Assembly (NCBI GenBank): GCA_963745025.1 | Contig: CAVUWD010000014.1 | Coordinates: forward strand, 1 to 64,000 | Direction of reading: 5' to 3' | DNA length: 64,000 bases | Source: an uncultured delta proteobacterium | GTDB lineage: Bacteria; Desulfobacterota; Binatia; JACPRU01 | Shown here: piece by piece, positions 56,515 to 64,000 of the stretch | Position numbering within the stretch: the first letter of the stretch is position 1 | Layout: each line of letters begins with the position of its first letter | Notes under the pieces: generated by a model | Database searches by the model: none | Seen by the model: only the letters and a program-made list of their open reading frames with translations | What the model was told of the DNA's origin: nothing | Translations under genes and position numbers: made by a program

Positions 56515-56777
56515 AGCGATCATTGCCAACGCCAGCATCGACTCCACACGGCTGGGATGAACGGCCGGCGAACGGCGAGCACTGGCCAAGAACGATGGGA
56601 CCTTGCACGGCCGCCTCGGCCGAATCACTCGACTGGCATGCAAGATTTCTCTGGAGTTGTTCCATCGAGTACGACCGCGTAGATCGTCGAGAACTCCATG
56701 TTCATCCGCGGCGACCCACGTGACGTCCGCGCCGCAGGCGAGTACGCTGTTCGCGTGTTGCTGTGGAGGGTTCACGC

Positions 56778-57791
56778 ATGCCTGCCAATCTCTCGCCCGA
56801 CTACAAGGCCGCGGAGGCCAACTTCCGCAAGGCGCGCGACCCGCAGGAGCGCCTCGAGTGGCTGCGGGAGATGCTGCGCGTCATTCCCAAGCACAAGGGT
56901 ACGGATCACCTGCAGGGCGACATCAAGAGCAAGATCCGGCAGTTGTCCGAGGAGCTGGAGGCGCACAGGAAAGGCGCGACGCGCGGCGGCCCCAGCATCG
57001 TCACGCACCCAGAAGGCGCCGCCCAGCTCGCGTTGATCGGCCCGCCCAACTCGGGCAAGTCTTCGCTCCACGCGAGGCTGACAGGATCGAATGCACACGT
57101 GGCGCCCTATCCCTTCACCACCCAGTTCCCCGAGCCGGGGATGATGCCGTACCAGGATATCCACTTTCAGCTCGTCGATCTGCCGGCGATCTCGCCCGAA
57201 CATCCGGTGGCGTGGATTGCCGACGCTGTGCAGACGGCAGATGGGTGCCTGCTGGTGGTCGATCTGAGCGACGCCGATTGTGTCGACCAGGTGCAGGCGC
57301 TGCACCTGGTGCTCGCAGCGCGGCATGTCACGCTGAGCGAGCACTGGGCCCCGGACGAAGAGGCTCCGGACACCGAGACAGACGTCTTCCGAGTGCGTCT
57401 GCCGACGCTGCTGGTGGACAACAAATGCGACCGGGAAACGGAGCCGGAGGAAGACCTCGAGGTATTTCGCGAGTTGACCGGGTTGCGTTATCCCGCGCTG
57501 GCCGTATCGGCCGTCACCGGACACGGCCTCGGCGAGCTGGGGGCCTTCCTGTTTCGCAACTTACGTATCGTGCGCGTTTATACCAAGACGCCGGGGCATG
57601 CCGTCGATCGCCAGCGCCCGTTCACGCTGCGGCAGGGGCAGACCATCGAGCACGTGGCGCGCCTGGTGCACAAAGATCTCCTGAACACCCTGCGCTATGC
57701 CCGCGTGTGGGGAAAGTCGGGGTTCGATGGTCAGCACGTGGGAGGCGAGCATCGCGTCGAAGATGGGGACGTGATCGAGCTTCACAGCTGA
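56778..57791 (+). CDS. OBG-family DRG-like GTPase with TGS domain
   Basis: MPANL..., PKHKGTDHL, GPPNSGKS, YPFTT, DLPA, NKCD; TGS domain ending DGDVIELH. Confidence 0.9.
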   Translation: MPANLSPDYKAAEANFRKARDPQERLEWLREMLRVIPKHKGTDHLQGDIKSKIRQLSEELEAHRKGATRGGPSIVTHPEGAAQLALIGPPNSGKSSLHARLTGSNAHVAPYPFTTQFPEPGMMPYQDIHFQLVDLPAISPEHPVAWIADAVQTADGCLLVVDLSDADCVDQVQALHLVLAARHVTLSEHWAPDEEAPDTETDVFRVRLPTLLVDNKCDRETEPEEDLEVFRELTGLRYPALAVSAVTGHGLGELGAFLFRNLRIVRVYTKTPGHAVDRQRPFTLRQGQTIEHVARLVHKDLLNTLRYARVWGKSGFDGQHVGGEHRVEDGDVIELHS

Positions 57792-57829: not shown

Positions 57830-57960
57830 TGCCCGCTGCGCGGGAGTTTCTGAGGGCGTGGTTCTGATGACCGGCGGTTGGAAGACGCGGCCGATCTTCG
57901 AGCGCTACAACATCAAGAGCGAAGACAAACTGCGCGACGCCGCTGCCGCGGTTGCCGTTT
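57830..57960 (+). pseudogene. Tyrosine integrase C-terminal remnant
   Basis: AGVSEGVVLMTGGWKTRPIFERYNIKSEDKLRDAA. Confidence 0.75.
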
Positions 57961-58052
57961 GCGCCCTTGGGAAAGAATCGAGAAAACAGCTCGCACGAAA
58001 CCCATCGGGAAGACTTGGAGGTCTCGCGATACACCGTGACTTCCAGTTTTTT

Positions 58053-58108
58053 TGAGTGCCGGAAGGGGGACTCGAACCCCCACGGCCTTGCGACCACCGG
58101 ATTTTGAG
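58053..58108 (-). repeat. att site: 56-bp duplicate of the tRNA-Leu 3' portion, up to the anticodon loop
   Basis: TGAGTGCCGGAAGGGGGACTCGAACCCCCACGGCCTTGCGACCACCGGATTTTGAG. Confidence 0.95.
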
Positions 58109-58714
58109 ATCTGGATAATATCGAGCAGTACGGTCAAATCCGAAGGAACTCAAGGCCCTTGGCGGGTTCGAGCCGTAGCCGTCCGTACCTGCCCAGCACG
58201 GAAATGGGTCGGAAATGGGTCTGTCTAATCGCGCGGCGCTGAGTCCCGCGAGCCTTCCTCGAAGCTGCAAATGGCGGTGCGCTCGGGCCCCCTGGGAAAC
58301 CCCTACGGGGTGCGCCACCCGCGGGTACGCTGCCGTACTGTGCCGTCGCCCTGTTGGGCAGAGGTTGGGCGCGCCCTCGTGCGTCTTGACAACACTCTCG
58401 GCGCGGGCAAACGTCTTCACTGATGAGCTGAAGAGGTCCGTCGTCGGCGCTGTTCCAGCGGATCGAAGGAGATGGAAGGGTCTCGAGGATAAAAAGAATT
58501 ACTTCAAGTTGCAACAGGCGGTTCGTGTCCACTGTGCCGCATCCGGCATTGGCGAACATGTCACGTGGGCCCCACCGAAGACGCAGCCAGCATGCACAGC
58601 CGACGGCCTGCTCTACGAACGCGAGAACGGCAAGAATCGAGTGACACCGATGCAATCCCATCGCAGGTGACAGACGCCGGGGAGACCATCGTCGAAAGGG
58701 AAAGGGCGTACATC

Positions 58715-59345
58715 ATGGCAAAAGATTCCAAATCGGTAACAGCAACAAATCCCGAAGGAGCCAACGGAGAGAAGTCCCTTTCCGTGGCCGACCTGGGCAT
58801 GGGCGATGCCCGCGGCGTGGACAAGATCCGCGATCTCCTGTTCGGAAACCAGATGCAGGATTACGATCGCCGGTTCTCGATGCTCGCGGAAGGCTTCCAT
58901 CAGAAGCTGCGAGACGTGGAGTCCGAGACCGCTCGGAGCCTGAGTAGCCTAGAGGCCAACCTCAAGAAGCAGCTCGACTCGATCGCGGGCCAGGTTCGGG
59001 AAGAGAAGGATCTGCGAACCGACGCGGACAAGGAGCTCGATCACAAACCTGCGCGAGTCGAGCCAGGCGCTGGAGAAGCGCATCGGACAGCTGTCCGACC
59101 AACTCGCGTGCCTGGAGCGGGACATGAACGATCGCGTCAGCCACGATGTCCAGGGCTTGCGTGAAGAGATCAAGCGCCGGAGCGACGACGCGCGTGCCAC
59201 CCTCGATCGGATGTTCGCCGAGCTTCGCGACGTGAAAACGGACCGGAGCCTGCTTGCCGGCTTATTCGTGGAAGTCGCGCGCTGCTTGAACCAGGAGCTG
59301 CCTCCGTCGCTCGCGACCAAGAGCGGAGGCGGCGAGCGGAGCTGA
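58715..59345 (+). CDS. Coiled-coil protein; one frameshift near 59045
   Basis: VDKIRDLLFGNQMQDYDRRF...KTDRSLLAGLFVEVA, joined across two frames. Confidence 0.8.
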
Positions 59346-59369
59346 ACCGCGCCGCGCAGGGCGCCGGTC

Positions 59370-61211
59370 ATGTCGGATTCCCCGCCGCTTCGCAGGCCGG
59401 GTTCGGACGTCAACGGGCAGACGCCGAACCCTGATCGGCTCGCCAACCTCTTGATCGGGATCGCACGGTACGTCGATCCCGCGACCGCTCCGAGCATCCC
59501 GGCGCCGAGCGGCGATCCGAGTCTCGACGCGGTCCGGCACATCCTGCTCGACCGGGAGCTGCAAGTTCTCGCCCGGCTTCGGAGGACGCTCGACGAGCCC
59601 GAGCGCTTGGCCGCGGCCGTCGGTGACGTCCTGTCGCTGGCCGTTCAGCGGGCCGCGGCGCGCGACGGGCGGTTGGGTGAGGTGCTCACCCCGGCGGTCG
59701 AGCGCGCCGCGCAATGCTCGATCAAGAAGGACCCGCGGACGTTCATAGGCATCTTCTCTCCGCTGATGGGCGCCACCATCCGCAAGTCGATCGCGGAGGC
59801 TCTGGAGAGCACGCTCCAATCCCTCAATCAGGCGCTCAAGCACAGCCTGTCGTGGCGAGGGCTCATGTGGCGGATCGAGGCGCGTCGCGCCGGCACGACG
59901 TTCGCGGACGTGGTGCTCCGGCACACGCTCGTCTACCGCGTCGAGCACCTCTTCCTGATCCACAAGGAGAGCGGCCTCCTCATCAGCCACGTCGCGGCGG
60001 ACGACGCCGCGAGCGAGGACCCGCAGCTCGTCTCGGGAATGCTCAGCGCCATCCAGGACTTCGTCCGGGACTCTTTCGGTCGCGCCGACGCCACCGGCCT
60101 CGACACCCTGCGTCTGGGTGATCGGGTCCTGTGGTGCGAGCAAGGCGCGCTCGCTTTTCTCGCGGCCGTCATTCGCGGCACGCCGCCCGAAACGCTCCAC
60201 GTCACTCTCCGCGAGACGTTGGCGAGCATCCACGACGAGTGGCGCGCCCCACTCGCGGACTTCGCCGGCGACGATGCGGACTTCGCCGGCGTCGCCGAAC
60301 GCCTGCGGACGTCTCTGCAAGCGCAGGCGAGCGCCCCCGAAAAGCGCCTGTCGCCTCTCCTCTGGGTGCTGCCCCTGTTGTTGGTCGCCCTCGGCGGCTA
60401 CTGGCTGTACGAGCGACACGAAGCCCGGCGGCGGTTCGACCGGTACGTCGCGCAGCTCGAAGCCGAGCCTGGGATCGTCGTAACCAGCGCCGGAAGGCGC
60501 GGCGGCGTCTGGCAGGTGACCGGCATGCGGGACCCGTTGTCGCCCGACCCGACGACGCTGCTGGCCGCGGCCGACCTGGCACCGGCCGAGGTCGATGGAC
60601 ATTGGCAGCCGTATCTCGCGCTCGACCCGGCCCTAGCGCTCAAGAGGTTCCAGACGAGCCTGCAGCCGCCGCCGACCGTCTCCCTCGCGCTCGAGGATGG
60701 CACGGTACGGGCGCACGGGTCTGCGCCGCACCATTGGATCGAGCGGGCACGCGCCCTCGTTCGCACGTTGCCACCCGGATCCCCCGGGCTCGATCTGGCG
60801 AGCCTCGAGGATCCCGAGATGGCGGAATACGAGCGCGTACGCAGCGCCGTCCAATCCCACGTGATCTACTTCGATCACAACGTCCCGAAGCCGGCGAGCG
60901 GCCAGGAGGCCGAGATCGACGCTCTGGCTGGCGAGCTGCTCGAGCTCGAGCGGGTGGTGCGCGAGATGCGCGTCTCCGCGCGCGTGACGATTGCAGGCCA
61001 TGCCGATTCCACGGGCAAGGACACGCCGAACCTCGCCCTCAGCATGGGGCGAGCGGAGGTCGTTCGCTCCATGCTGAGGGCGCGTGGCGTCGATCCCGAC
61101 CTGTTGGCGGTCCGGGGCGCGGGGCCGCTCGAGCCCTTGAAGCCAGAGACGACCGAAGAGGATCGTTCCATCAATCGACGCGTGTCGTTCACCGTCGGCA
61201 TCGGAGAGTGA
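59370..61211 (+). CDS. Single-pass membrane protein with cytoplasmic N-terminal domain and C-terminal OmpA-like domain
   Basis: YRVEHLFLIHKESGLL, VSGMLSAIQDFVRDSF, TM LLWVLPLLLVALGGYW, GMRDPL, GHADSTG...NLALSMGRA...NRRV. Confidence 0.9.
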   Translation: MSDSPPLRRPGSDVNGQTPNPDRLANLLIGIARYVDPATAPSIPAPSGDPSLDAVRHILLDRELQVLARLRRTLDEPERLAAAVGDVLSLAVQRAAARDGRLGEVLTPAVERAAQCSIKKDPRTFIGIFSPLMGATIRKSIAEALESTLQSLNQALKHSLSWRGLMWRIEARRAGTTFADVVLRHTLVYRVEHLFLIHKESGLLISHVAADDAASEDPQLVSGMLSAIQDFVRDSFGRADATGLDTLRLGDRVLWCEQGALAFLAAVIRGTPPETLHVTLRETLASIHDEWRAPLADFAGDDADFAGVAERLRTSLQAQASAPEKRLSPLLWVLPLLLVALGGYWLYERHEARRRFDRYVAQLEAEPGIVVTSAGRRGGVWQVTGMRDPLSPDPTTLLAAADLAPAEVDGHWQPYLALDPALALKRFQTSLQPPPTVSLALEDGTVRAHGSAPHHWIERARALVRTLPPGSPGLDLASLEDPEMAEYERVRSAVQSHVIYFDHNVPKPASGQEAEIDALAGELLELERVVREMRVSARVTIAGHADSTGKDTPNLALSMGRAEVVRSMLRARGVDPDLLAVRGAGPLEPLKPETTEEDRSINRRVSFTVGIGE

Positions 61212-61720
61212 TGCAGCAGAAGAAGATCTGCATGCTAGGTGCGTTCGCCGTGGGCAAGACGAGTCTCGTGCGCCGCTACGTCGACAGCATCTTCTCGGAC
61301 ACCTACCTCACGACGGTAGGGGTTAAGATCGACAAGCGCGTGGTCACGGTCGGCGACGACACGCTGAACCTGATTCTCTGGGACATCGCCGGCGAGGACG
61401 ATGTGTCTTCCGTCCGGATGAGCTATCTCCGCGGCGCGAGCGGCTATTTCCTGGTGGTGGACGGGACACGTGCCGCGACGCTCGACGTCGCGCGTTCCAT
61501 CCAGCAGCGCGCCGAAAGCGAGATCGGCAGCGTGCCGTTCATCGCCCTCGTCAACAAGCTCGACGTACGCGACGAGTGGGCCGTCACGCAGGAAAGCCTG
61601 GCCGAGCTCGAAGACGCCGGGTGGTCGGTGGCGCTGACCAGCGCCCGAACCGGCGAAGGCGTCGAAGTGGCGTTCCGCACCCTCGCCGAACGCATGCTCC
61701 GGCCGAACCCGGCGACGTGA
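61211..61720 (+). CDS. Rab/Ras-like small GTPase (prokaryotic Rup-type)
   Basis: G1 GAFAVGKTS, G2 YLTTVG, G3 WDIAG, G4 NKLD, G5 SAR. Confidence 0.93.
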   Translation: MQQKKICMLGAFAVGKTSLVRRYVDSIFSDTYLTTVGVKIDKRVVTVGDDTLNLILWDIAGEDDVSSVRMSYLRGASGYFLVVDGTRAATLDVARSIQQRAESEIGSVPFIALVNKLDVRDEWAVTQESLAELEDAGWSVALTSARTGEGVEVAFRTLAERMLRPNPAT

Positions 61721-63159
61721 TAAACCTGCCCGGCAGCCTGAGGGAAGCGCTGCTCGGCCGCGTATGCGCCGAGCACGAGCCCACGTATCTCCTGCTCGAT
61801 TCCAGCTACCGAGTCGCCCGGGTGGGCGCCGACATGGAGCGTTACGGCCTGAACGAGCTCCGGATCGGCGAACCCGCCAACACGCAGGTGCGGTTCCTCG
61901 AAGGCCTGCTTCCGCCACGAGACCTGCCGTTCACACTACCTGCCGTGGAGATGCCCTCCGGTCGCGTCGCCGACGTGCTGCTGCACGGCGACGTCGACGG
62001 CCTCTGGGTGGTCCTCTTGGACGTGACCGGCGAAATCGAACAGGCCAGGCTCTTACAGCAAAAGGCATACGACATCATGCTGCGGAGCGAGCGCGCGGCG
62101 CGGCGCGGAGAAGCCTGGCCCGCCGCAGCTACCGATTATCTCAATCGGCTGCTGCAAGAGCAATTTCGCCCGGCCTTTCTGCAAGTCGATGTGGACGGCA
62201 ACGTGATGGCGGCTGGCGGCGCGCTCGAGCTGTACGGACTTTCGGTGGTCCAGGTGGGCGCGTCCATCGTTGACTACCTGCCCCTCCTGATGGGCCTCTT
62301 GCCGCTGCAAGCGCCGGGCGATCCGTTCGTAATCCCCTGGGTCAACATCGACGGCGGCGGCTATATGGATGTCCACCTCGTTCCCGGCGACGGCTCCGAC
62401 TTCGTAATCTGCGTCGAGGCCCTCGTCGAAAGGCAGGAGCGCGTGGCATGGCAGCAGAAGGGAAACGAGCTCGCCCTGACCAAGCACAAGCAGGCGCAGC
62501 TGCTCGAATCTCACGTGGGAAAGTACGTTGCCGAAGAGCTGCTGCGGGGTGGTTTGGTGCCGGACGAGGAAGGCGAGCGGTGCGAGGCCTCGCTTCTCTT
62601 CTGTGACATTCGCGGTTTTACCACCTTCGCCGAGCGGCAGCCACCGCAGGTGGTCTTCCAGACGCTGAATCAGCTTCTCCAGGCCATGGTTCAGCCCATC
62701 CTCGATCACGGTGGCTGGCTCGACAAGATGGCCGGAGACGCCGTGTTTGGCGCGTTCGGTCTCATTCCCTACCAGCGACCTGACGGAGACGAACTGAAGA
62801 CCACAGCGCCGATTCGCGCGCTGCTCGCCGCGCAGGCCATCATGCGCGGGCTGCGCGACTGGAACGACGAGCGGCGGCGTAGCGGAGCCGAGGCGCTGCA
62901 CGCCGGAATCGGGATCAGCACTGGAGCAGTCGCGGTCGGAGTTCTTGGCACGCGTGAGCGGCGGCAGTTCACGATCATCGGCCACCACGTCAACCTCGCG
63001 GCGCGGCTGCAGACACAGGCGCTGGCCGGCGAGATCATCATTGATACGTCGACCCACGAGGCGCTTGGCGAGCTCGCGCAGGGCTTTAAGCCGCGACCGC
63101 TTCGTCTCAAAGGCCTGCAGGACCTCGTGACTGCCTACGTACTCGCCGCGGATTTGTAG
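61717..63159 (+). CDS. Class III adenylate cyclase with two N-terminal PAS-like repeats
   Basis: FCDIRGFT, DKMAGDAV, GIGISTG, FTIIGHHVNLAARL; GTGA overlap with the GTPase stop. Confidence 0.92.
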   Translation: MINLPGSLREALLGRVCAEHEPTYLLLDSSYRVARVGADMERYGLNELRIGEPANTQVRFLEGLLPPRDLPFTLPAVEMPSGRVADVLLHGDVDGLWVVLLDVTGEIEQARLLQQKAYDIMLRSERAARRGEAWPAAATDYLNRLLQEQFRPAFLQVDVDGNVMAAGGALELYGLSVVQVGASIVDYLPLLMGLLPLQAPGDPFVIPWVNIDGGGYMDVHLVPGDGSDFVICVEALVERQERVAWQQKGNELALTKHKQAQLLESHVGKYVAEELLRGGLVPDEEGERCEASLLFCDIRGFTTFAERQPPQVVFQTLNQLLQAMVQPILDHGGWLDKMAGDAVFGAFGLIPYQRPDGDELKTTAPIRALLAAQAIMRGLRDWNDERRRSGAEALHAGIGISTGAVAVGVLGTRERRQFTIIGHHVNLAARLQTQALAGEIIIDTSTHEALGELAQGFKPRPLRLKGLQDLVTAYVLAADL

Positions 63160-63401
63160 ACGCCGCTTCGCCGACGTTGCTGTACAGTGGGCGATGCGAC
63201 AGCGTGATCGGCATCCCCGAATCGACTTCCTCGATCGCGCGCGGCGGTTGAAAACGGCTACCTGCAGCTAAGCGAGCAGGGCCTTCGCGAGGCGGCCGAG
63301 AGAGTAGCTAGCGCCTCTGTTGGTAGCGTCGGGCAAAACGGCCGATGTAGTGCCACCCCTAAGAGATCCTCGGCGGGCGACGTACCCCGGAACTACGTGA
63401 G

Positions 63402-63486
63402 TGCCGGAAGGGGGGACTCGAACCCCCACGGCCTTGCGACCACCGGATTTTGAGTCCGGCGCGTCTACCAGTTCCGCCATTCCGGC
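63402..63486 (-). tRNA. tRNA-Leu(CAA)
   Basis: Reverse complement GCCGGAATGGCGGAACTGGTAGACGCGCCGGACTCAAAATCCGGTGGTCGCAAGGCCGTGGGGGTTCGAGTCCCC...TTCCGGCA; long variable arm. Confidence 0.97.
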
Positions 63487-63619
63487 CTAGTTTGCGGGTA
63501 TCAGCGAAGCTCTTGAGATTCAAGGTGATTCTTGCCGGGGTACGCGGCACATTGCGGTGCTACAGCGCGGATTTCGTGACGTTCATCCCCTCAACTCGGG
63601 CTTTTGCCCCCTTATCTCG

Positions 63620-63745
63620 GGCGGCAGCTACCTGCGCTGCGGCATTCCGCAGATCATCCTCGTTCTTGATGTCGTAGCGGTCGAACATCTAGTGCGTCCT
63701 CCATCCGCAGATCTGCATCACGATCCCTTCTGGCACGCCGCGCCG
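63620..63745 (-). pseudogene. Second tyrosine integrase C-terminal remnant
   Basis: RGVPEGIVMQICGWRTH*MFDRYDIKNEDDLRNAAAQ. Confidence 0.72.
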
Positions 63746-64000
63746 CCATCTCATTCTGCCTCGTCGCCGGGGCTGCTCCTTCCGCTCGTCGCGAGTCAAT
63801 GTAGAGATCCATCCGCGGGTCCGTCACGGCACACCGGCATCGCCGTCAAAGCGGGACAGGAGATGGGGAAGTGCCGCGTCCGAGATCGACCGTTACGTAG
63901 CGTTTCGGCCCTTGTAGCCGCTAACCTAACCGCGACCTAGCACCTCCACCGCCTCACCGGCACGTCGAGCAACCGGCACTCCTTTTCAGCAACGGCTTCT

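What the first reader, a model, noticed from the sequence alone, without database searches (positions are those of the whole stretch)
58715..63159. Mobile four-gene signalling module: coiled-coil, membrane OmpA protein, Rab-like GTPase, tandem-PAS adenylate cyclase
Seen: four co-oriented genes, the last three translationally coupled (TGATG at 61209-61213, GTGA at 61717-61720). The GTPase has intact G1-G5 motifs. The cyclase keeps both metal-binding Asp, the Lys/Thr ATP-selecting pair and Asn-x3-Arg. Established: prokaryotic Ras-like 'Rup' GTPases have been noted computationally next to coiled-coil and OmpA-domain genes plus variable signalling outputs; I know of no assigned function. Inference: a peptidoglycan-anchored receptor controls the nucleotide state of the GTPase, which gates cAMP synthesis. 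This would be a bacterial analogue of receptor, G protein and adenylate cyclase signalling. The operon is the only intact cargo of the island, so it appears to travel as a self-contained unit.
Basis: partly seen in the sequence, partly recalled or inferred. Interest (0 to 1): 0.85.

Follow-up and report, generated by a model that had tools for sequence, protein, structure and literature searches.

The report
Bacterial Rab-like GTPase signalling operon
This is a four-gene bacterial signalling operon built around a Rab-like small GTPase, of a type first described by computer analysis in 2014 and never tested, here coupled to a cAMP-making enzyme; modelling suggests how its parts fit together.

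Summary
The four co-oriented genes, both overlapping stop/start junctions, the GTPase motifs and the cyclase catalytic residues are all present. This is a Group 1 "Rup" module (coiled-coil, unknown-domain/TM/OmpA, Rup GTPase, output enzyme), described computationally by Wuichet & Sogaard-Andersen in 2014, so the architecture is not new.

- Gene 1 carries one extra C at 59048/59049 that splits it. All 3 public contigs covering that base lack it, so it is probably an assembly error or a private mutation.
- The "island" is a 5.3-kb segment between 56/57-nt tRNA-Leu repeats. It holds only integrase remnants and no mobility gene.

What this work adds:
- In 160 related loci the order is conserved and position 4 swaps between PP2C (62), class III cyclase (46) and histidine kinase.
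- The output's N-domain has a PAS fold with an invariant QQ. It is predicted to dock on the GTPase switch I/II and P-loop (ipSAE 0.90, best control 0.24).
- This cyclase carries two such domains, a rare chimera that is real in four soil studies.
- The "unknown" cytoplasmic domain of the OmpA protein models as a longin fold (Z 13), the fold of eukaryotic Rab GEF platforms.

Function remains untested.

The parts
57840..57971 (+). Integrase C-terminal remnant, lying just outside the left repeat.
   Evidence: tblastn with the intact integrase of G001 (L092 7357-8286): residues 252-295, 59% identity. No Pfam hit for the 76-aa ORF.
58053..58108 (-). Left direct repeat: a copy of the 3' half of tRNA-Leu(CAA).
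   Evidence: the repeat finder families D16 and D1 match 63398-63454 at 100%, apart from a one-base difference in a G run. ARAGORN calls no tRNA here.
58715..59345 (+). Gene 1, a coiled-coil protein, split in this assembly by one extra C at 59048/59049.
   Evidence: Searches show the two frames. One search aligns it to the intact 237-aa G006 gene; 29 of 29 relatives are in frame; the contigs of 3 of 3 runs that cover the base lack it.
59370..61211 (+). Gene 2, a 613-aa inner-membrane protein: cytoplasmic N-region, one TM helix, a periplasmic module and an OmpA-like domain.
   Evidence: Pfam OmpA. AF2 model of all 613 residues, mean pLDDT 72.2. At least 1557 homologs.
59937..60338 (+). Longin-fold domain of gene 2 (residues 190-323, order beta-beta-alpha-beta-beta-beta-alpha-alpha).
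   Evidence: VIA-align: 3egd_C Sec22 Z 13.2, rmsd 2.5, 124 aligned; 4afi_B VAMP7 longin Z 13.2; 7q3d_C CPLANE Z 12.8; TRAPP, AP sigma/mu and SR-alpha Z 11-12. pLDDT here is only 54-83. No sequence-level hit.
60357..60464 (+). Transmembrane helix region of gene 2 (model helix, residues 330-365).
   Evidence: AF2 secondary structure; a hydrophobic stretch conserved in the alignment.
60807..61202 (+). OmpA-like peptidoglycan-binding domain (residues 480-611).
   Evidence: Pfam. Foldseek and VIA match Pal/OmpA C-domains, Z up to 15.4.
61211..61720 (+). Gene 3, a Group 1 Rup small GTPase of 169 aa. G3 reads D-I-A-G-E-D, with Glu62 in place of the catalytic Gln.
   Evidence: It is the only copy found in its own genome.
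61717..62112 (+). Gene 4, N-domain A (residues 1-132): PAS fold ending in a helix that carries invariant Q114 Q115.
   Evidence: AF2 pLDDT 91.3. All 50 listed VIA rows are PAS domains, best Z 9.8. Foldseek gives 13 hits at E <= 1e-3, the listed ones PAS, LOV or phytochrome domains. Predicted to dock on the GTPase. The core 61735-62092 is absent in L001 and G006.
62113..62526 (+). Gene 4, N-domain B (about residues 133-270): a second copy of the same domain, with Q246 Q247 K248.
   Evidence: Internal repeat, E 1e-6. Invariant columns. This is the only N-domain kept in the 353-367-aa close relatives.
62569..63144 (+). Gene 4, class III nucleotide cyclase catalytic domain (residues 285-476).
   Evidence: Pfam. 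PDB phmmer E 4e-24 to 6fht/2w01, with the catalytic positions aligned.
63244..63342 (+). Second integrase C-terminal remnant, between the cyclase gene and the tRNA.
   Evidence: tblastn: residues 269-302 of the G001 integrase, 59% identity.
63401..63486 (-). tRNA-Leu(CAA). Its 3' half (63398-63454) is the right direct repeat.
   Evidence: ARAGORN; the repeat finder.
63644..63833 (-). Third integrase remnant, in two pieces and with a stop, on the far side of the tRNA.
   Evidence: tblastn: residues 52-80 and 254-284 of the G001 integrase.

Best explanation
The locus is a Group 1 Rup small-GTPase signalling module whose output is a class III adenylate cyclase.

Shown by sequence: there are four syntenic genes. 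These are a coiled-coil protein; an inner-membrane protein with a cytoplasmic domain, one TM helix and a periplasmic OmpA-like peptidoglycan-binding domain; a Rab-like GTPase that has Glu in place of the catalytic Gln; and a cyclase with all six catalytic positions of an ATP-using class III enzyme.

Supported by models only: the cytoplasmic domain of the membrane protein has a longin fold. The cyclase N-domains have a PAS fold ending in a helix with an invariant Gln-Gln. [quoted passage not shown]

Inferred mechanism: a periplasmic or cell-wall cue acts through the membrane protein. Its longin domain, perhaps together with the coiled-coil protein, recruits Rup or exchanges its nucleotide, as longin platforms do for Rab GTPases. 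Rup-GTP then binds the PAS domain and changes the geometry of the helical linker and so the activity of the cyclase dimer. The Gln-Gln supplies the missing catalytic Gln in trans, so the effector also switches the GTPase off.

The second N-domain is a leftover of output swapping. Domain A resembles the N-domain of PP2C-output relatives. It was joined in front of a B-type cyclase, and most close relatives have since lost its core by a 360-nt in-frame deletion.

The operon sits between tRNA-Leu repeats in a decayed integration hot spot and is not itself mobile now.
For: Family identity: the four-gene neighbourhood, the missing G3 Gln and the invariant Gln of the output N-region match the description in PMC4316618 (passages). 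Glu62 is invariant in 55 of 55 sequences, and Q114 and Q115 are invariant in 55 of 55.

Synteny: 81 of 84 loci with enough upstream DNA have both upstream genes. Outputs among 160 loci are PP2C 62, cyclase 46, HK 6, other complete 9, cut 20 and no N-domain hit 17. Five further ones were resolved by Pfam as PP2C, cyclase or HK.

PAS fold.

Binding: ipSAE 0.90 in each of three runs, best of 3 controls 0.24. The mark was reached by 58 of 80 solved and 2 of 110 mismatched pairs, which holds only roughly here (own alignments, ligands riding along). The runs agree in at least 98% of contacts and the partner pLDDT is at least 90. The interface on the GTPase is residues 12-13, 32-40, 55, 60, 63 and 69-76. 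On the N-domain it is residues 72-78 and 107-125, including Q114, Q115 and Y118.

Longin fold: Z 13.2 / 13.2 / 12.8 to Sec22, VAMP7 and CPLANE longin domains over residues 190-323.

Cyclase residues.

Tandem domain is real: contigs of four runs from four studies run from the GTPase gene into domain A (X1, X4, X5) or across the A/B junction (X7). Two other full-length two-domain proteins appear among the 150 best representatives: P0185, a cyclase, and P0307, an HK.

Deletion origin of the short forms: L001 and G006 lack 61735-62092 but keep the start motif of A and the linker after A.
Against: No experiment exists for any Rup protein in the literature I could search.

The complex was modelled only for domain A, not for domain B, which is the one adjacent to the cyclase and the one kept in all close relatives. 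It was also not modelled for the longin domain.

The longin region of the model has only moderate confidence (pLDDT 54-83, 35-row alignment) and no sequence-level support. Pfam gave nothing at E <= 10 and the PDB profile search gave nothing at E <= 10.

A predicted interface says nothing about GAP activity, and I could not measure the distance of the Gln to the gamma-phosphate.

The direction of signal flow is assumed.

Gene 1 is frameshifted in the window as assembled. If that is real, this copy may be impaired.

The PAS domains could bind a small ligand instead of, or as well as, the GTPase.
Confidence: 0.6

Rival explanations
1. Inside-out control. The PAS/enzyme protein is the sensor and GAP, and Rup is the relay. 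The real target is the longin/OmpA membrane protein together with the coiled-coil protein, which would change the cell envelope or a peptidoglycan-anchored structure. On this view cAMP synthesis is a parallel or secondary readout.
For: PAS domains are typical input domains, and the fold is supported. Longin domains also act as GTPase effectors or anchors: SR-alpha and AP sigma/mu chains are among the matches. The OmpA module with MotB-like topology resembles stator and anchor proteins.
Against: The C-terminal enzymatic domain is the part that is exchanged between otherwise conserved operons, which is the usual behaviour of an output. The PAS domain's predicted contact surface is used for the GTPase.
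Confidence: 0.15
2. The module is an island-borne anti-phage or conflict system. On this view the cyclase makes a nucleotide alarm signal, as in Pycsar, triggered by envelope damage.
For: It lies between tRNA repeats in an integration hot spot. It is absent from the same-genus genome G001. The cyclase domain matches PADLOC PycC models (best E 5e-21), and the OmpA part matches ZorB models.
Against: These PADLOC hits are generic class III cyclase and MotB/OmpA similarity, and the GTPase has no PADLOC hit. No effector gene is present among the four genes. Alternative outputs are PP2C and histidine kinases. The Lys/Thr pair points to ATP (the rule is recalled). Only 7 of 46 full-length genome loci have any tRNA within 6 kb.
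Confidence: 0.05
3. In this genome the module is a decaying relic. Gene 1 is truly frameshifted and the cyclase is an aberrant fusion, so nothing functions here.
For: There is an extra C at 59048/59049. The surrounding mobile element is decayed to fragments. The two-domain cyclase is rare: 3 full-length cases among the 150 best representatives.
Against: Genes 2-4 are intact with all conserved residues. All contigs covering 59048 in 3 of 3 runs from three studies lack the extra base. The two-domain form occurs at 95-100% likeness in four studies. Both domains keep the invariant QQK.
Confidence: 0.1

Closest known systems
[quoted passage not shown]
   Same: It has the same four components in the same order. 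The GTPase lacks the G3 Gln. The second protein has an unknown domain, then a TM helix, then OmpA. The output has an N-terminal region with an invariant Gln. Mesorhizobium, the paper's reference organism, is among the relatives found here.
   Different: The passages I read name GGDEF/EAL and histidine kinases as the typical outputs. Here the output is a class III cyclase, and among this GTPase's nearest 160 loci PP2C and cyclase dominate. The paper left both accessory domains without a fold; here they model as PAS and longin.
MglA/MglB and the actinobacterial conservon (small GTPase with a Roadblock-domain regulator)
   Same: Each is a prokaryotic Ras-superfamily switch paired with a regulator from the Roadblock/longin structural class and linked to signal-transduction proteins.
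   Different: No Robl_LC7 match was found in the window's genome (the genome is 92.65% complete). The regulator-like domain here has longin order, is fused to a membrane and peptidoglycan anchor, and the GTPase is Rab-like rather than MglA-like.
Eukaryotic Rab GTPases with longin-domain GEF platforms (TRAPP, Mon1-Ccz1, CPLANE Fuzzy-Inturned)
   Same: The GTPase's best PDB sequence matches are Rabs, namely Rab23, Rab1 and Ypt7. Residues 190-323 of gene 2 superpose on longin domains of CPLANE, TRAPP subunits and longin SNAREs at Z 11-13.
   Different: There is no sequence similarity to any longin family. There is one longin-like domain on a single-pass membrane protein, not a soluble heterodimer. 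No exchange activity has been shown. That these eukaryotic complexes are GEFs for those Rabs is recalled knowledge.
Heterotrimeric G protein - adenylate cyclase signalling
   Same: It has a membrane sensor, a GTPase switch and a class III cyclase. The effector may also act as GAP, as some G-alpha effectors do (recalled).
   Different: The GTPase is a small Ras/Rab-type protein, not G-alpha. The predicted contact is with an N-terminal PAS domain, not the catalytic domains. The sensor is a single-pass peptidoglycan-binding protein, not a 7TM receptor.
PAS-regulated class III cyclases and PAS-PP2C proteins such as Rv1364c
   Same: The order is N-terminal PAS fold, helical linker, then catalytic domain. 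The Rv1364c PAS domain is among the structural matches.
   Different: Pfam PAS models do not match. The conserved feature is a Gln-Gln on the C-terminal helix that is predicted to face a GTPase, not a ligand pocket.

Membership tests
Group 1 Rup system | Single-domain Ras-superfamily GTPase of 150-240 aa with G1-G5 motifs | tested here: met
   169 aa; Pfam Ras E 2.8e-27; the motif residues are invariant in 55 of 55.
Group 1 Rup system | Catalytic Gln of G3 absent | tested here: met
   G3 reads D58-I-A-G-E62-D. Glu62 aligns with the Gln of Rab23 and is invariant in the alignment.
Group 1 Rup system | Not coupled to an MglB/Roadblock gene | tested here: met
   No Robl_LC7 match in the whole genome at E <= 0.001 (the genome is 92.65% complete). 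None of the four genes matches it.
Group 1 Rup system | Neighbourhood of a coiled-coil gene, an unknown-domain/TM/OmpA gene and an output gene whose N-region has an invariant Gln | tested here: met
   81 of 84 loci; Q114 and Q115 invariant.
Group 1 Rup system | Placement inside the Group 1 clade in a tree with the paper's sequences | not tested
   No tree was built. Mesorhizobium relatives at 63-64% identity are only suggestive.
Class III adenylate cyclase | Catalytic domain above Pfam's cut-off | tested here: met
   PF00211, 63.6 bits against a cut-off of 21.9.
Class III adenylate cyclase | Two metal-binding Asp, a Lys plus Asp/Thr substrate pair, and transition-state Asn and Arg in one chain (homodimer type) | tested here: met
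   D297, D341, K337, T419, N426 and R430 by alignment to 2w01/6fht. The residue roles are recalled.
Class III adenylate cyclase | Makes cAMP | not testable with these tools
   Needs an enzyme assay.
PAS domain | Five-stranded antiparallel sheet with flanking helices (PAS fold) | tested here: met
   Domain A model pLDDT 91.3. All 50 listed VIA rows are PAS domains, best Z 9.8, rmsd 2.3, 84 aligned. Foldseek E 7e-5. Domain B is placed here only by homology to A.
PAS domain | Match to a Pfam PAS sequence model | tested here: not met
   No PAS family at E <= 0.01 for the 480-aa protein.
Longin domain | beta-beta-alpha-beta-beta-beta-alpha-alpha fold superposable on longin domains | tested here: met
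   Residues 190-323; Z 13.2 (rmsd 2.5, 124 aligned) to Sec22 and 13.2 to VAMP7. The model confidence is moderate.
Longin domain | Sequence-family membership | tested here: inconclusive
   No Pfam hit at E <= 10. No PDB profile hit at E <= 10. The ESM Atlas gave no named lead.
Longin domain | Binds or regulates a small GTPase | not tested
tRNA-integrated genomic island | Direct repeats made of the tRNA 3' end | tested here: met
   58053-58108 against 63398-63454, identical but for one base of a G run.
tRNA-integrated genomic island | Own integrase or other mobility gene | tested here: not met
   Only three remnants of 29-44 residues each, none inside a complete ORF.
tRNA-integrated genomic island | Variable presence among close relatives | tested here: met
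   Not found in the same-genus genome G001 (82% complete), whose tRNA-Leu is followed by an intact integrase. Present next to the same tRNA in G006, a different genus.
Pycsar defence system | Cyclase paired with a nucleotide-activated effector gene | tested here: not met
   Only the cyclase domain matches, and none of the other three genes is an effector type.

The most novel reading that the evidence does not exclude
Group 1 Rup operons encode a complete bacterial Rab-type GTPase cycle built from the same structural parts that eukaryotes use. A membrane-anchored longin domain acts as exchange factor or recruiter for a Rab-like GTPase, and a PAS-domain effector doubles as a Gln-in-trans GAP. 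If so, the longin-Rab partnership would predate eukaryotes in bacteria, not only in Asgard archaea, and could have entered eukaryotes together with the Rab/Ras-like GTPase by gene transfer.
Probability: 0.3. Interest if true: 0.85.

Novelty: new variant of a known kind. Interest (0 to 1): 0.6.

Why it matters
Group 1 Rup GTPases are the closest bacterial relatives of Rab/Ras/Rho/Ran according to the 2014 survey, and none has been studied at the bench. This work turns a gene-neighbourhood note into specific, cheap tests:
- a defined PAS-GTPase interface with two invariant Gln to mutate;
- a candidate longin-type regulator on the membrane protein;
- an enzymatic readout (cAMP) that can be scored in E. 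coli.

If the longin assignment holds, it bears on where the eukaryotic Rab-longin machinery came from. For this particular locus the practical points are three. It is a member of a published family. Its first gene is probably mis-assembled rather than dead. Its cyclase preserves a rare intermediate of output-domain swapping.

Tried and rejected
- Sequence-level identification of the cytoplasmic domain of gene 2 failed. Pfam at E <= 10 gave nothing for residues 165-300 or 21-327. The ESM Atlas gave three unnamed clusters at 0.83-0.85, below the level that means anything. A profile of 65 sequences (A8) found no PDB chain at E <= 10.
- Foldseek on the whole 613-aa model listed only OmpA-type chains. 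The longin match appeared only with VIA-align.
- Promoter and terminator scan of 58000-63500: 0 promoter-like sites and 3 terminator-like sites against 3.0 expected. This is uninformative.
- PADLOC and NCBIfam gave only generic domain matches.
- Read laying: no contig of the four runs covered 58187-58560, and cover of 63049-63235 was thin, so the island borders could not be checked in other samples. No joint corresponding to the short form (61734 to 62093) was listed in these four runs. X5 did not cover 59048.
- The runs hold at most 0.39 of the sampled words, so they are relatives, not the same strain.
- A first tally of outputs used too strict a spacing rule and miscounted overlapping genes. 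It was replaced.
- MAFFT placed all single N-domains on domain B of the full-length protein, so that alignment was not used for folding. Domain A alone (A5) was folded instead.
- The eLife 2020 conflict-systems paper mentions OmpA and small GTPases only in unrelated systems.
- I considered programmed frameshifting in gene 1 and rejected it, because relatives are in frame.
- The complex of the GTPase with domain B or with the longin domain, and a Rup tree with the 2014 sequences, were not done.
- The supplementary tables of PMC4316618 were closed and may list outputs I call unreported.

Full report
ANATOMY. The region holds four + strand genes.
- Gene 1 starts at 58715.
- Gene 2 (59370-61211, 613 aa) has a C-terminal OmpA domain.
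- Gene 3 (61211-61720, 169 aa) is a Ras-family GTPase.
- Gene 4 (61717-63159, 480 aa) ends in a class III cyclase domain (Pfam).

The stop of gene 2 overlaps the start of gene 3 (TGATG, read). The stop of gene 3 overlaps the GTG start of gene 4 (GTGA). The GTPase has all five G motifs. Its 60 best listed PDB sequence matches are all Rab proteins, led by Rab23. In G3 the usual catalytic Gln is Glu62, and this residue is invariant in 55 of 55 aligned relatives.

The cyclase domain aligns with Cya2-type structures (E 4e-24). This alignment places D297 and D341 at the metal positions, K337 and T419 at the substrate positions, and N426 and R430 at the transition-state positions. The meaning of these positions is recalled knowledge of class III cyclases.

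GENE 1 IS BROKEN IN THIS ASSEMBLY. The frame from 58715 ends at 59164 after about 40 residues that look out of frame. The conserved C-terminal half is read in the next frame up to 59345. Alignment with the intact 237-aa gene of a related genome (G006) shows one extra C at 59048/59049. In 29 of 29 metagenome loci where both halves were found, they are in one frame without a stop.

I laid Logan contigs of four public soil and wetland runs from four studies on the region. The three runs that cover the base (X1, X4, X7) each have one contig there. All three lack the extra base, and X5 does not cover it. The break is therefore either an assembly error or private to this strain. It is not a feature of the family, and I reject programmed frameshifting.

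IT IS A PUBLISHED KIND OF SYSTEM. Wuichet & Sogaard-Andersen (2014, PMC4316618; abstract and passages read) defined the Rup family. They described Group 1 Rup genes as lying in a conserved neighbourhood of three further genes:
- a cytoplasmic coiled-coil protein;
- a signalling output, 'typically' GGDEF/EAL or a histidine kinase, whose N-terminal region has an invariant Gln.

They noted that Group 1 Rup lacks the G3 Gln and speculated that the output supplies it in trans. Every one of these features is met here (see the membership table).

Three literature searches found no experimental study of a Rup protein. Searches found none. In one search only 3 papers since 2015 hold Rup, MglA and GTPase as whole words, and the 2 listed were neither about Rup function.

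NEIGHBOURHOOD SURVEY. I fetched 80 metagenome loci with the GTPase and 80 genome loci with a GTPase alignment. The record titles include Variovorax, Limnobacter, Mesorhizobium, Acidobacteriota, Myxococcaceae and others.

tblastn mapping gave these results:
- Of 84 loci with at least 4500 nt upstream of the GTPase, 81 have both the gene-2 N-region and the coiled-coil gene.
- At position 4, 62 loci have an N-domain followed by PP2C, 46 by a cyclase and 6 by a histidine kinase.
- Nine have a complete ORF with no recognised output, 20 are cut by the contig end, and 17 have no N-domain hit (11 of them with 600 nt or more of room).

Pfam on ten of the unresolved ORFs gave one more PP2C, one more cyclase, four kinases, two PAS-only proteins and two with nothing. 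A protein search with the N-region of gene 4 likewise returned cyclase, PP2C and kinase partners. Cyclase is a common output of this clade.

THE OUTPUT N-DOMAIN. Pfam sees no PAS domain. An AlphaFold model of residues 1-132 (55-row alignment, mean pLDDT 91.3) has the order helix, two strands, short helices, three strands, long helix.
- All 50 listed VIA-align matches are PAS domains. The best is photoactive yellow protein, Z 9.8, rmsd 2.3, 84 aligned.
- Foldseek gives 13 matches at E <= 0.001, and those listed are PAS, LOV or phytochrome domains.
- The alignment has invariant Q114 and Q115 on the long C-terminal helix.
- A profile search of 1.84 billion representatives finds 937 clusters at E <= 0.001 and 634 at E <= 1e-10.

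PREDICTED BINDING. I used the one complex job on the GTPase (55-row alignment) with domain A (55 rows), GTP and Mg.
- The score was 0.90 in each of three runs, and the best of 3 controls was 0.24.
- The mark was reached by 58 of 80 solved complexes and 2 of 110 mismatched pairs in the tool's calibration. This holds only roughly here because my own alignments and riding ligands were used.
- The runs agree in at least 98% of contacts, and the partner's pLDDT is at least 90.
- The confident interface comprises GTPase residues 12-13 (P-loop), 32-40 (switch I and the following strand), and 55, 60, 63 and 69-76 (switch II). On the PAS domain it comprises residues 72-78 (a strand) and 107-125 (the helix), with Q114, Q115 and Y118 against T34 and residues 12-13.

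This is the model's confidence, not a measurement. I know of no solved PAS-small GTPase complex that it could have memorised, but that is recalled and not searched. It fits an effector that reads the switch regions and places the conserved Gln pair near the nucleotide, as the 2014 authors guessed.

TWO N-DOMAINS, A CHIMERA. Gene 4 has two copies of the domain (A, residues 1-132; B, about 133-270). They are 26% identical to each other (E 1e-6), and each has the QQK motif. Ten close cyclase clusters (70-86% identity) are only 335-367 aa long and align to B plus the cyclase. Domain A is 72-79% identical to the N-domain of two PP2C-output proteins of the same clade (P0134, P0135).

The nearest locus L001 (90% GTPase identity) and genome G006 (87% DNA identity) lack window 61735-62092. 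After allowing for a 2-nt overlap in the G006 match, this is an in-frame 360-nt difference. Several short proteins still begin with the start motif of A, followed by the linker that follows A, and then the start of B.

I infer three steps. An A-type domain was first joined in front of a B-type cyclase. The short forms are later deletions. This window keeps the intermediate.

The two-domain form is not an assembly artefact. Contigs of X1, X4 and X5 run from the GTPase gene into domain A, and a contig of X7 crosses the A/B junction. It is rare. Among the 150 best representatives, 4 have two matched stretches. One is this protein's own cluster, one is a 106-aa fragment, and two are independent: P0185 with a cyclase and P0307 with a kinase. 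None of the 41 complete cyclase ORFs in the 160 loci exceeds 441 aa.

THE MEMBRANE PROTEIN. An AlphaFold model of all 613 residues (35 rows, mean pLDDT 72.2) shows these parts in order:
- a helical N-region of low confidence;
- a beta-beta-alpha-beta-beta-beta-alpha-alpha unit at residues 190-323 (pLDDT 54-83);
- a long helix at 330-365 that contains the hydrophobic segment;
- a periplasmic alpha/beta module;
- the OmpA-like domain.

VIA-align against 48,161 PDB representatives matches residues 190-323 to longin domains:
- Sec22 (3egd_C, Z 13.2, rmsd 2.5, 124 aligned);
- VAMP7 (Z 13.2);
- a CPLANE subunit (7q3d_C, Z 12.8);
- AP sigma/mu chains, sedlin, TRAPP subunits, SR-alpha and a Lokiarchaeota Roadblock-Longin protein (Z 11-12).

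The tool notes that a typical best Z for models without a clear Foldseek match is 7-8, so this match stands out. There is no sequence-level support, and the domain was not folded alone.

One literature search on longin domains, bacteria and small GTPases found nothing that links a longin fold to Rup operons. Passages of PMC3521125 and PMC10933270 treat longin domains as eukaryotic or Asgard descendants of Roadblock domains. No Roadblock (Robl_LC7) match exists in the window's genome (92.65% complete). Longer homologs in Mesorhizobium repeat the periplasmic module two or three times.

THE 'ISLAND'. A 56/57-nt direct repeat (58053-58108 and 63398-63454) is the 3' half of tRNA-Leu(CAA) at 63401-63486. 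Only the operon lies between the copies. Three integrase remnants lie around them, matched with the intact integrase of G001:
- 57840-57971;
- 63244-63342;
- 63644-63833, which contains a stop.

G001, of the same genus and 82% complete, shows no DNA match to the operon. It has an intact integrase and an HTH_17 gene next to its tRNA-Leu. G006, of another genus in the same family, has the operon 4.3 kb from the same tRNA, with unrelated gene fragments between and no integrase.

Of 46 full-length genome loci, 7 have a tRNA within 6 kb, and in 4 of these it directly follows the output gene. So the operon was probably brought in by an integrative element at a hot spot. It now has no means of moving, and 'self-contained mobile unit' is not shown.

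MECHANISM AND RIVALS. My best reading has four steps:
1. The membrane protein senses something in the periplasm or wall.
2. Its longin domain, possibly with the coiled-coil protein, sets or localises Rup.
3. Rup-GTP binds the PAS domain and modulates the cyclase through the helical linker.
4. The Gln pair completes the GTPase active site and ends the signal.

The parts and their conservation are shown. The two folds and one interface are modelled. Exchange activity, GAP activity, direction of flow and the cAMP product are inferred.

The rivals are inside-out control of the envelope, a defence role and a dead locus. They are set out with their evidence in the rival section. None is favoured by the data.

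VERDICT. The locus is a new variant (cyclase output, duplicated PAS domain) of a known but experimentally untouched system. Its interest lies less in this locus than in what the family now offers: a concrete PAS-GTPase interface and a possible bacterial longin partner of a Rab-like GTPase.

LIMITS. All structural statements rest on predictions. Domain B and the longin domain were not tested for binding. 

Noticed in passing
window 56763-57791: An Obg/DRG-like GTPase gene (MMR_HSR1 plus TGS domains, 342 aa) lies directly left of the integrase remnant. It is 77% identical in DNA to a gene of the same-genus genome G001, so it marks the conserved chromosome flank.
   Followed up: partly
window 57840-57971, 63244-63342, 63644-63833: Three separate remnants of tyrosine integrases surround one tRNA-Leu(CAA). 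This suggests repeated integration and decay at this site. The relative G001 has an intact integrase and an HTH_17 gene at the same tRNA.
   Followed up: partly
P0015, P0036 and other 885-1021-aa homologs of gene 2 (alignment A6): Mesorhizobium and other homologs repeat the periplasmic module of about 130 residues between the TM helix and the OmpA domain two or three times. The window's protein has one copy.
   Followed up: no
P0219 (771 aa): One representative protein starts with the Rup-associated PAS-like N-domain (residues 4-128) and ends with an OmpA domain (residues 635-734). This may be a fusion of parts that are separate genes here.
   Followed up: no
L052, L138, L148 (289-aa ORFs after the GTPase): In some loci, whose record titles name Acidobacteriota-type MAGs, the position-4 protein is the N-domain followed only by a Pfam-recognisable PAS domain. 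It has no enzymatic output.
   Followed up: partly
L097, L147, L167, L168: In four of 46 full-length genome loci a tRNA gene (Leu, Gly, Leu, Ser) lies directly downstream of the output gene. This hints that these operons often sit at tRNA integration sites.
   Followed up: no
G019:C3:2686272-2687907 (L086): A same-class genome shows 68-73% DNA matches to parts of gene 2 and the GTPase gene, so it probably carries a homologous operon. I did not examine it.
   Followed up: no
window 61034-61082: A 22-nt inverted repeat (91% complementary, 5-nt loop) lies inside the OmpA-domain coding region. It also appeared as a self-match in the genome search. Its significance is unknown.
   Followed up: no
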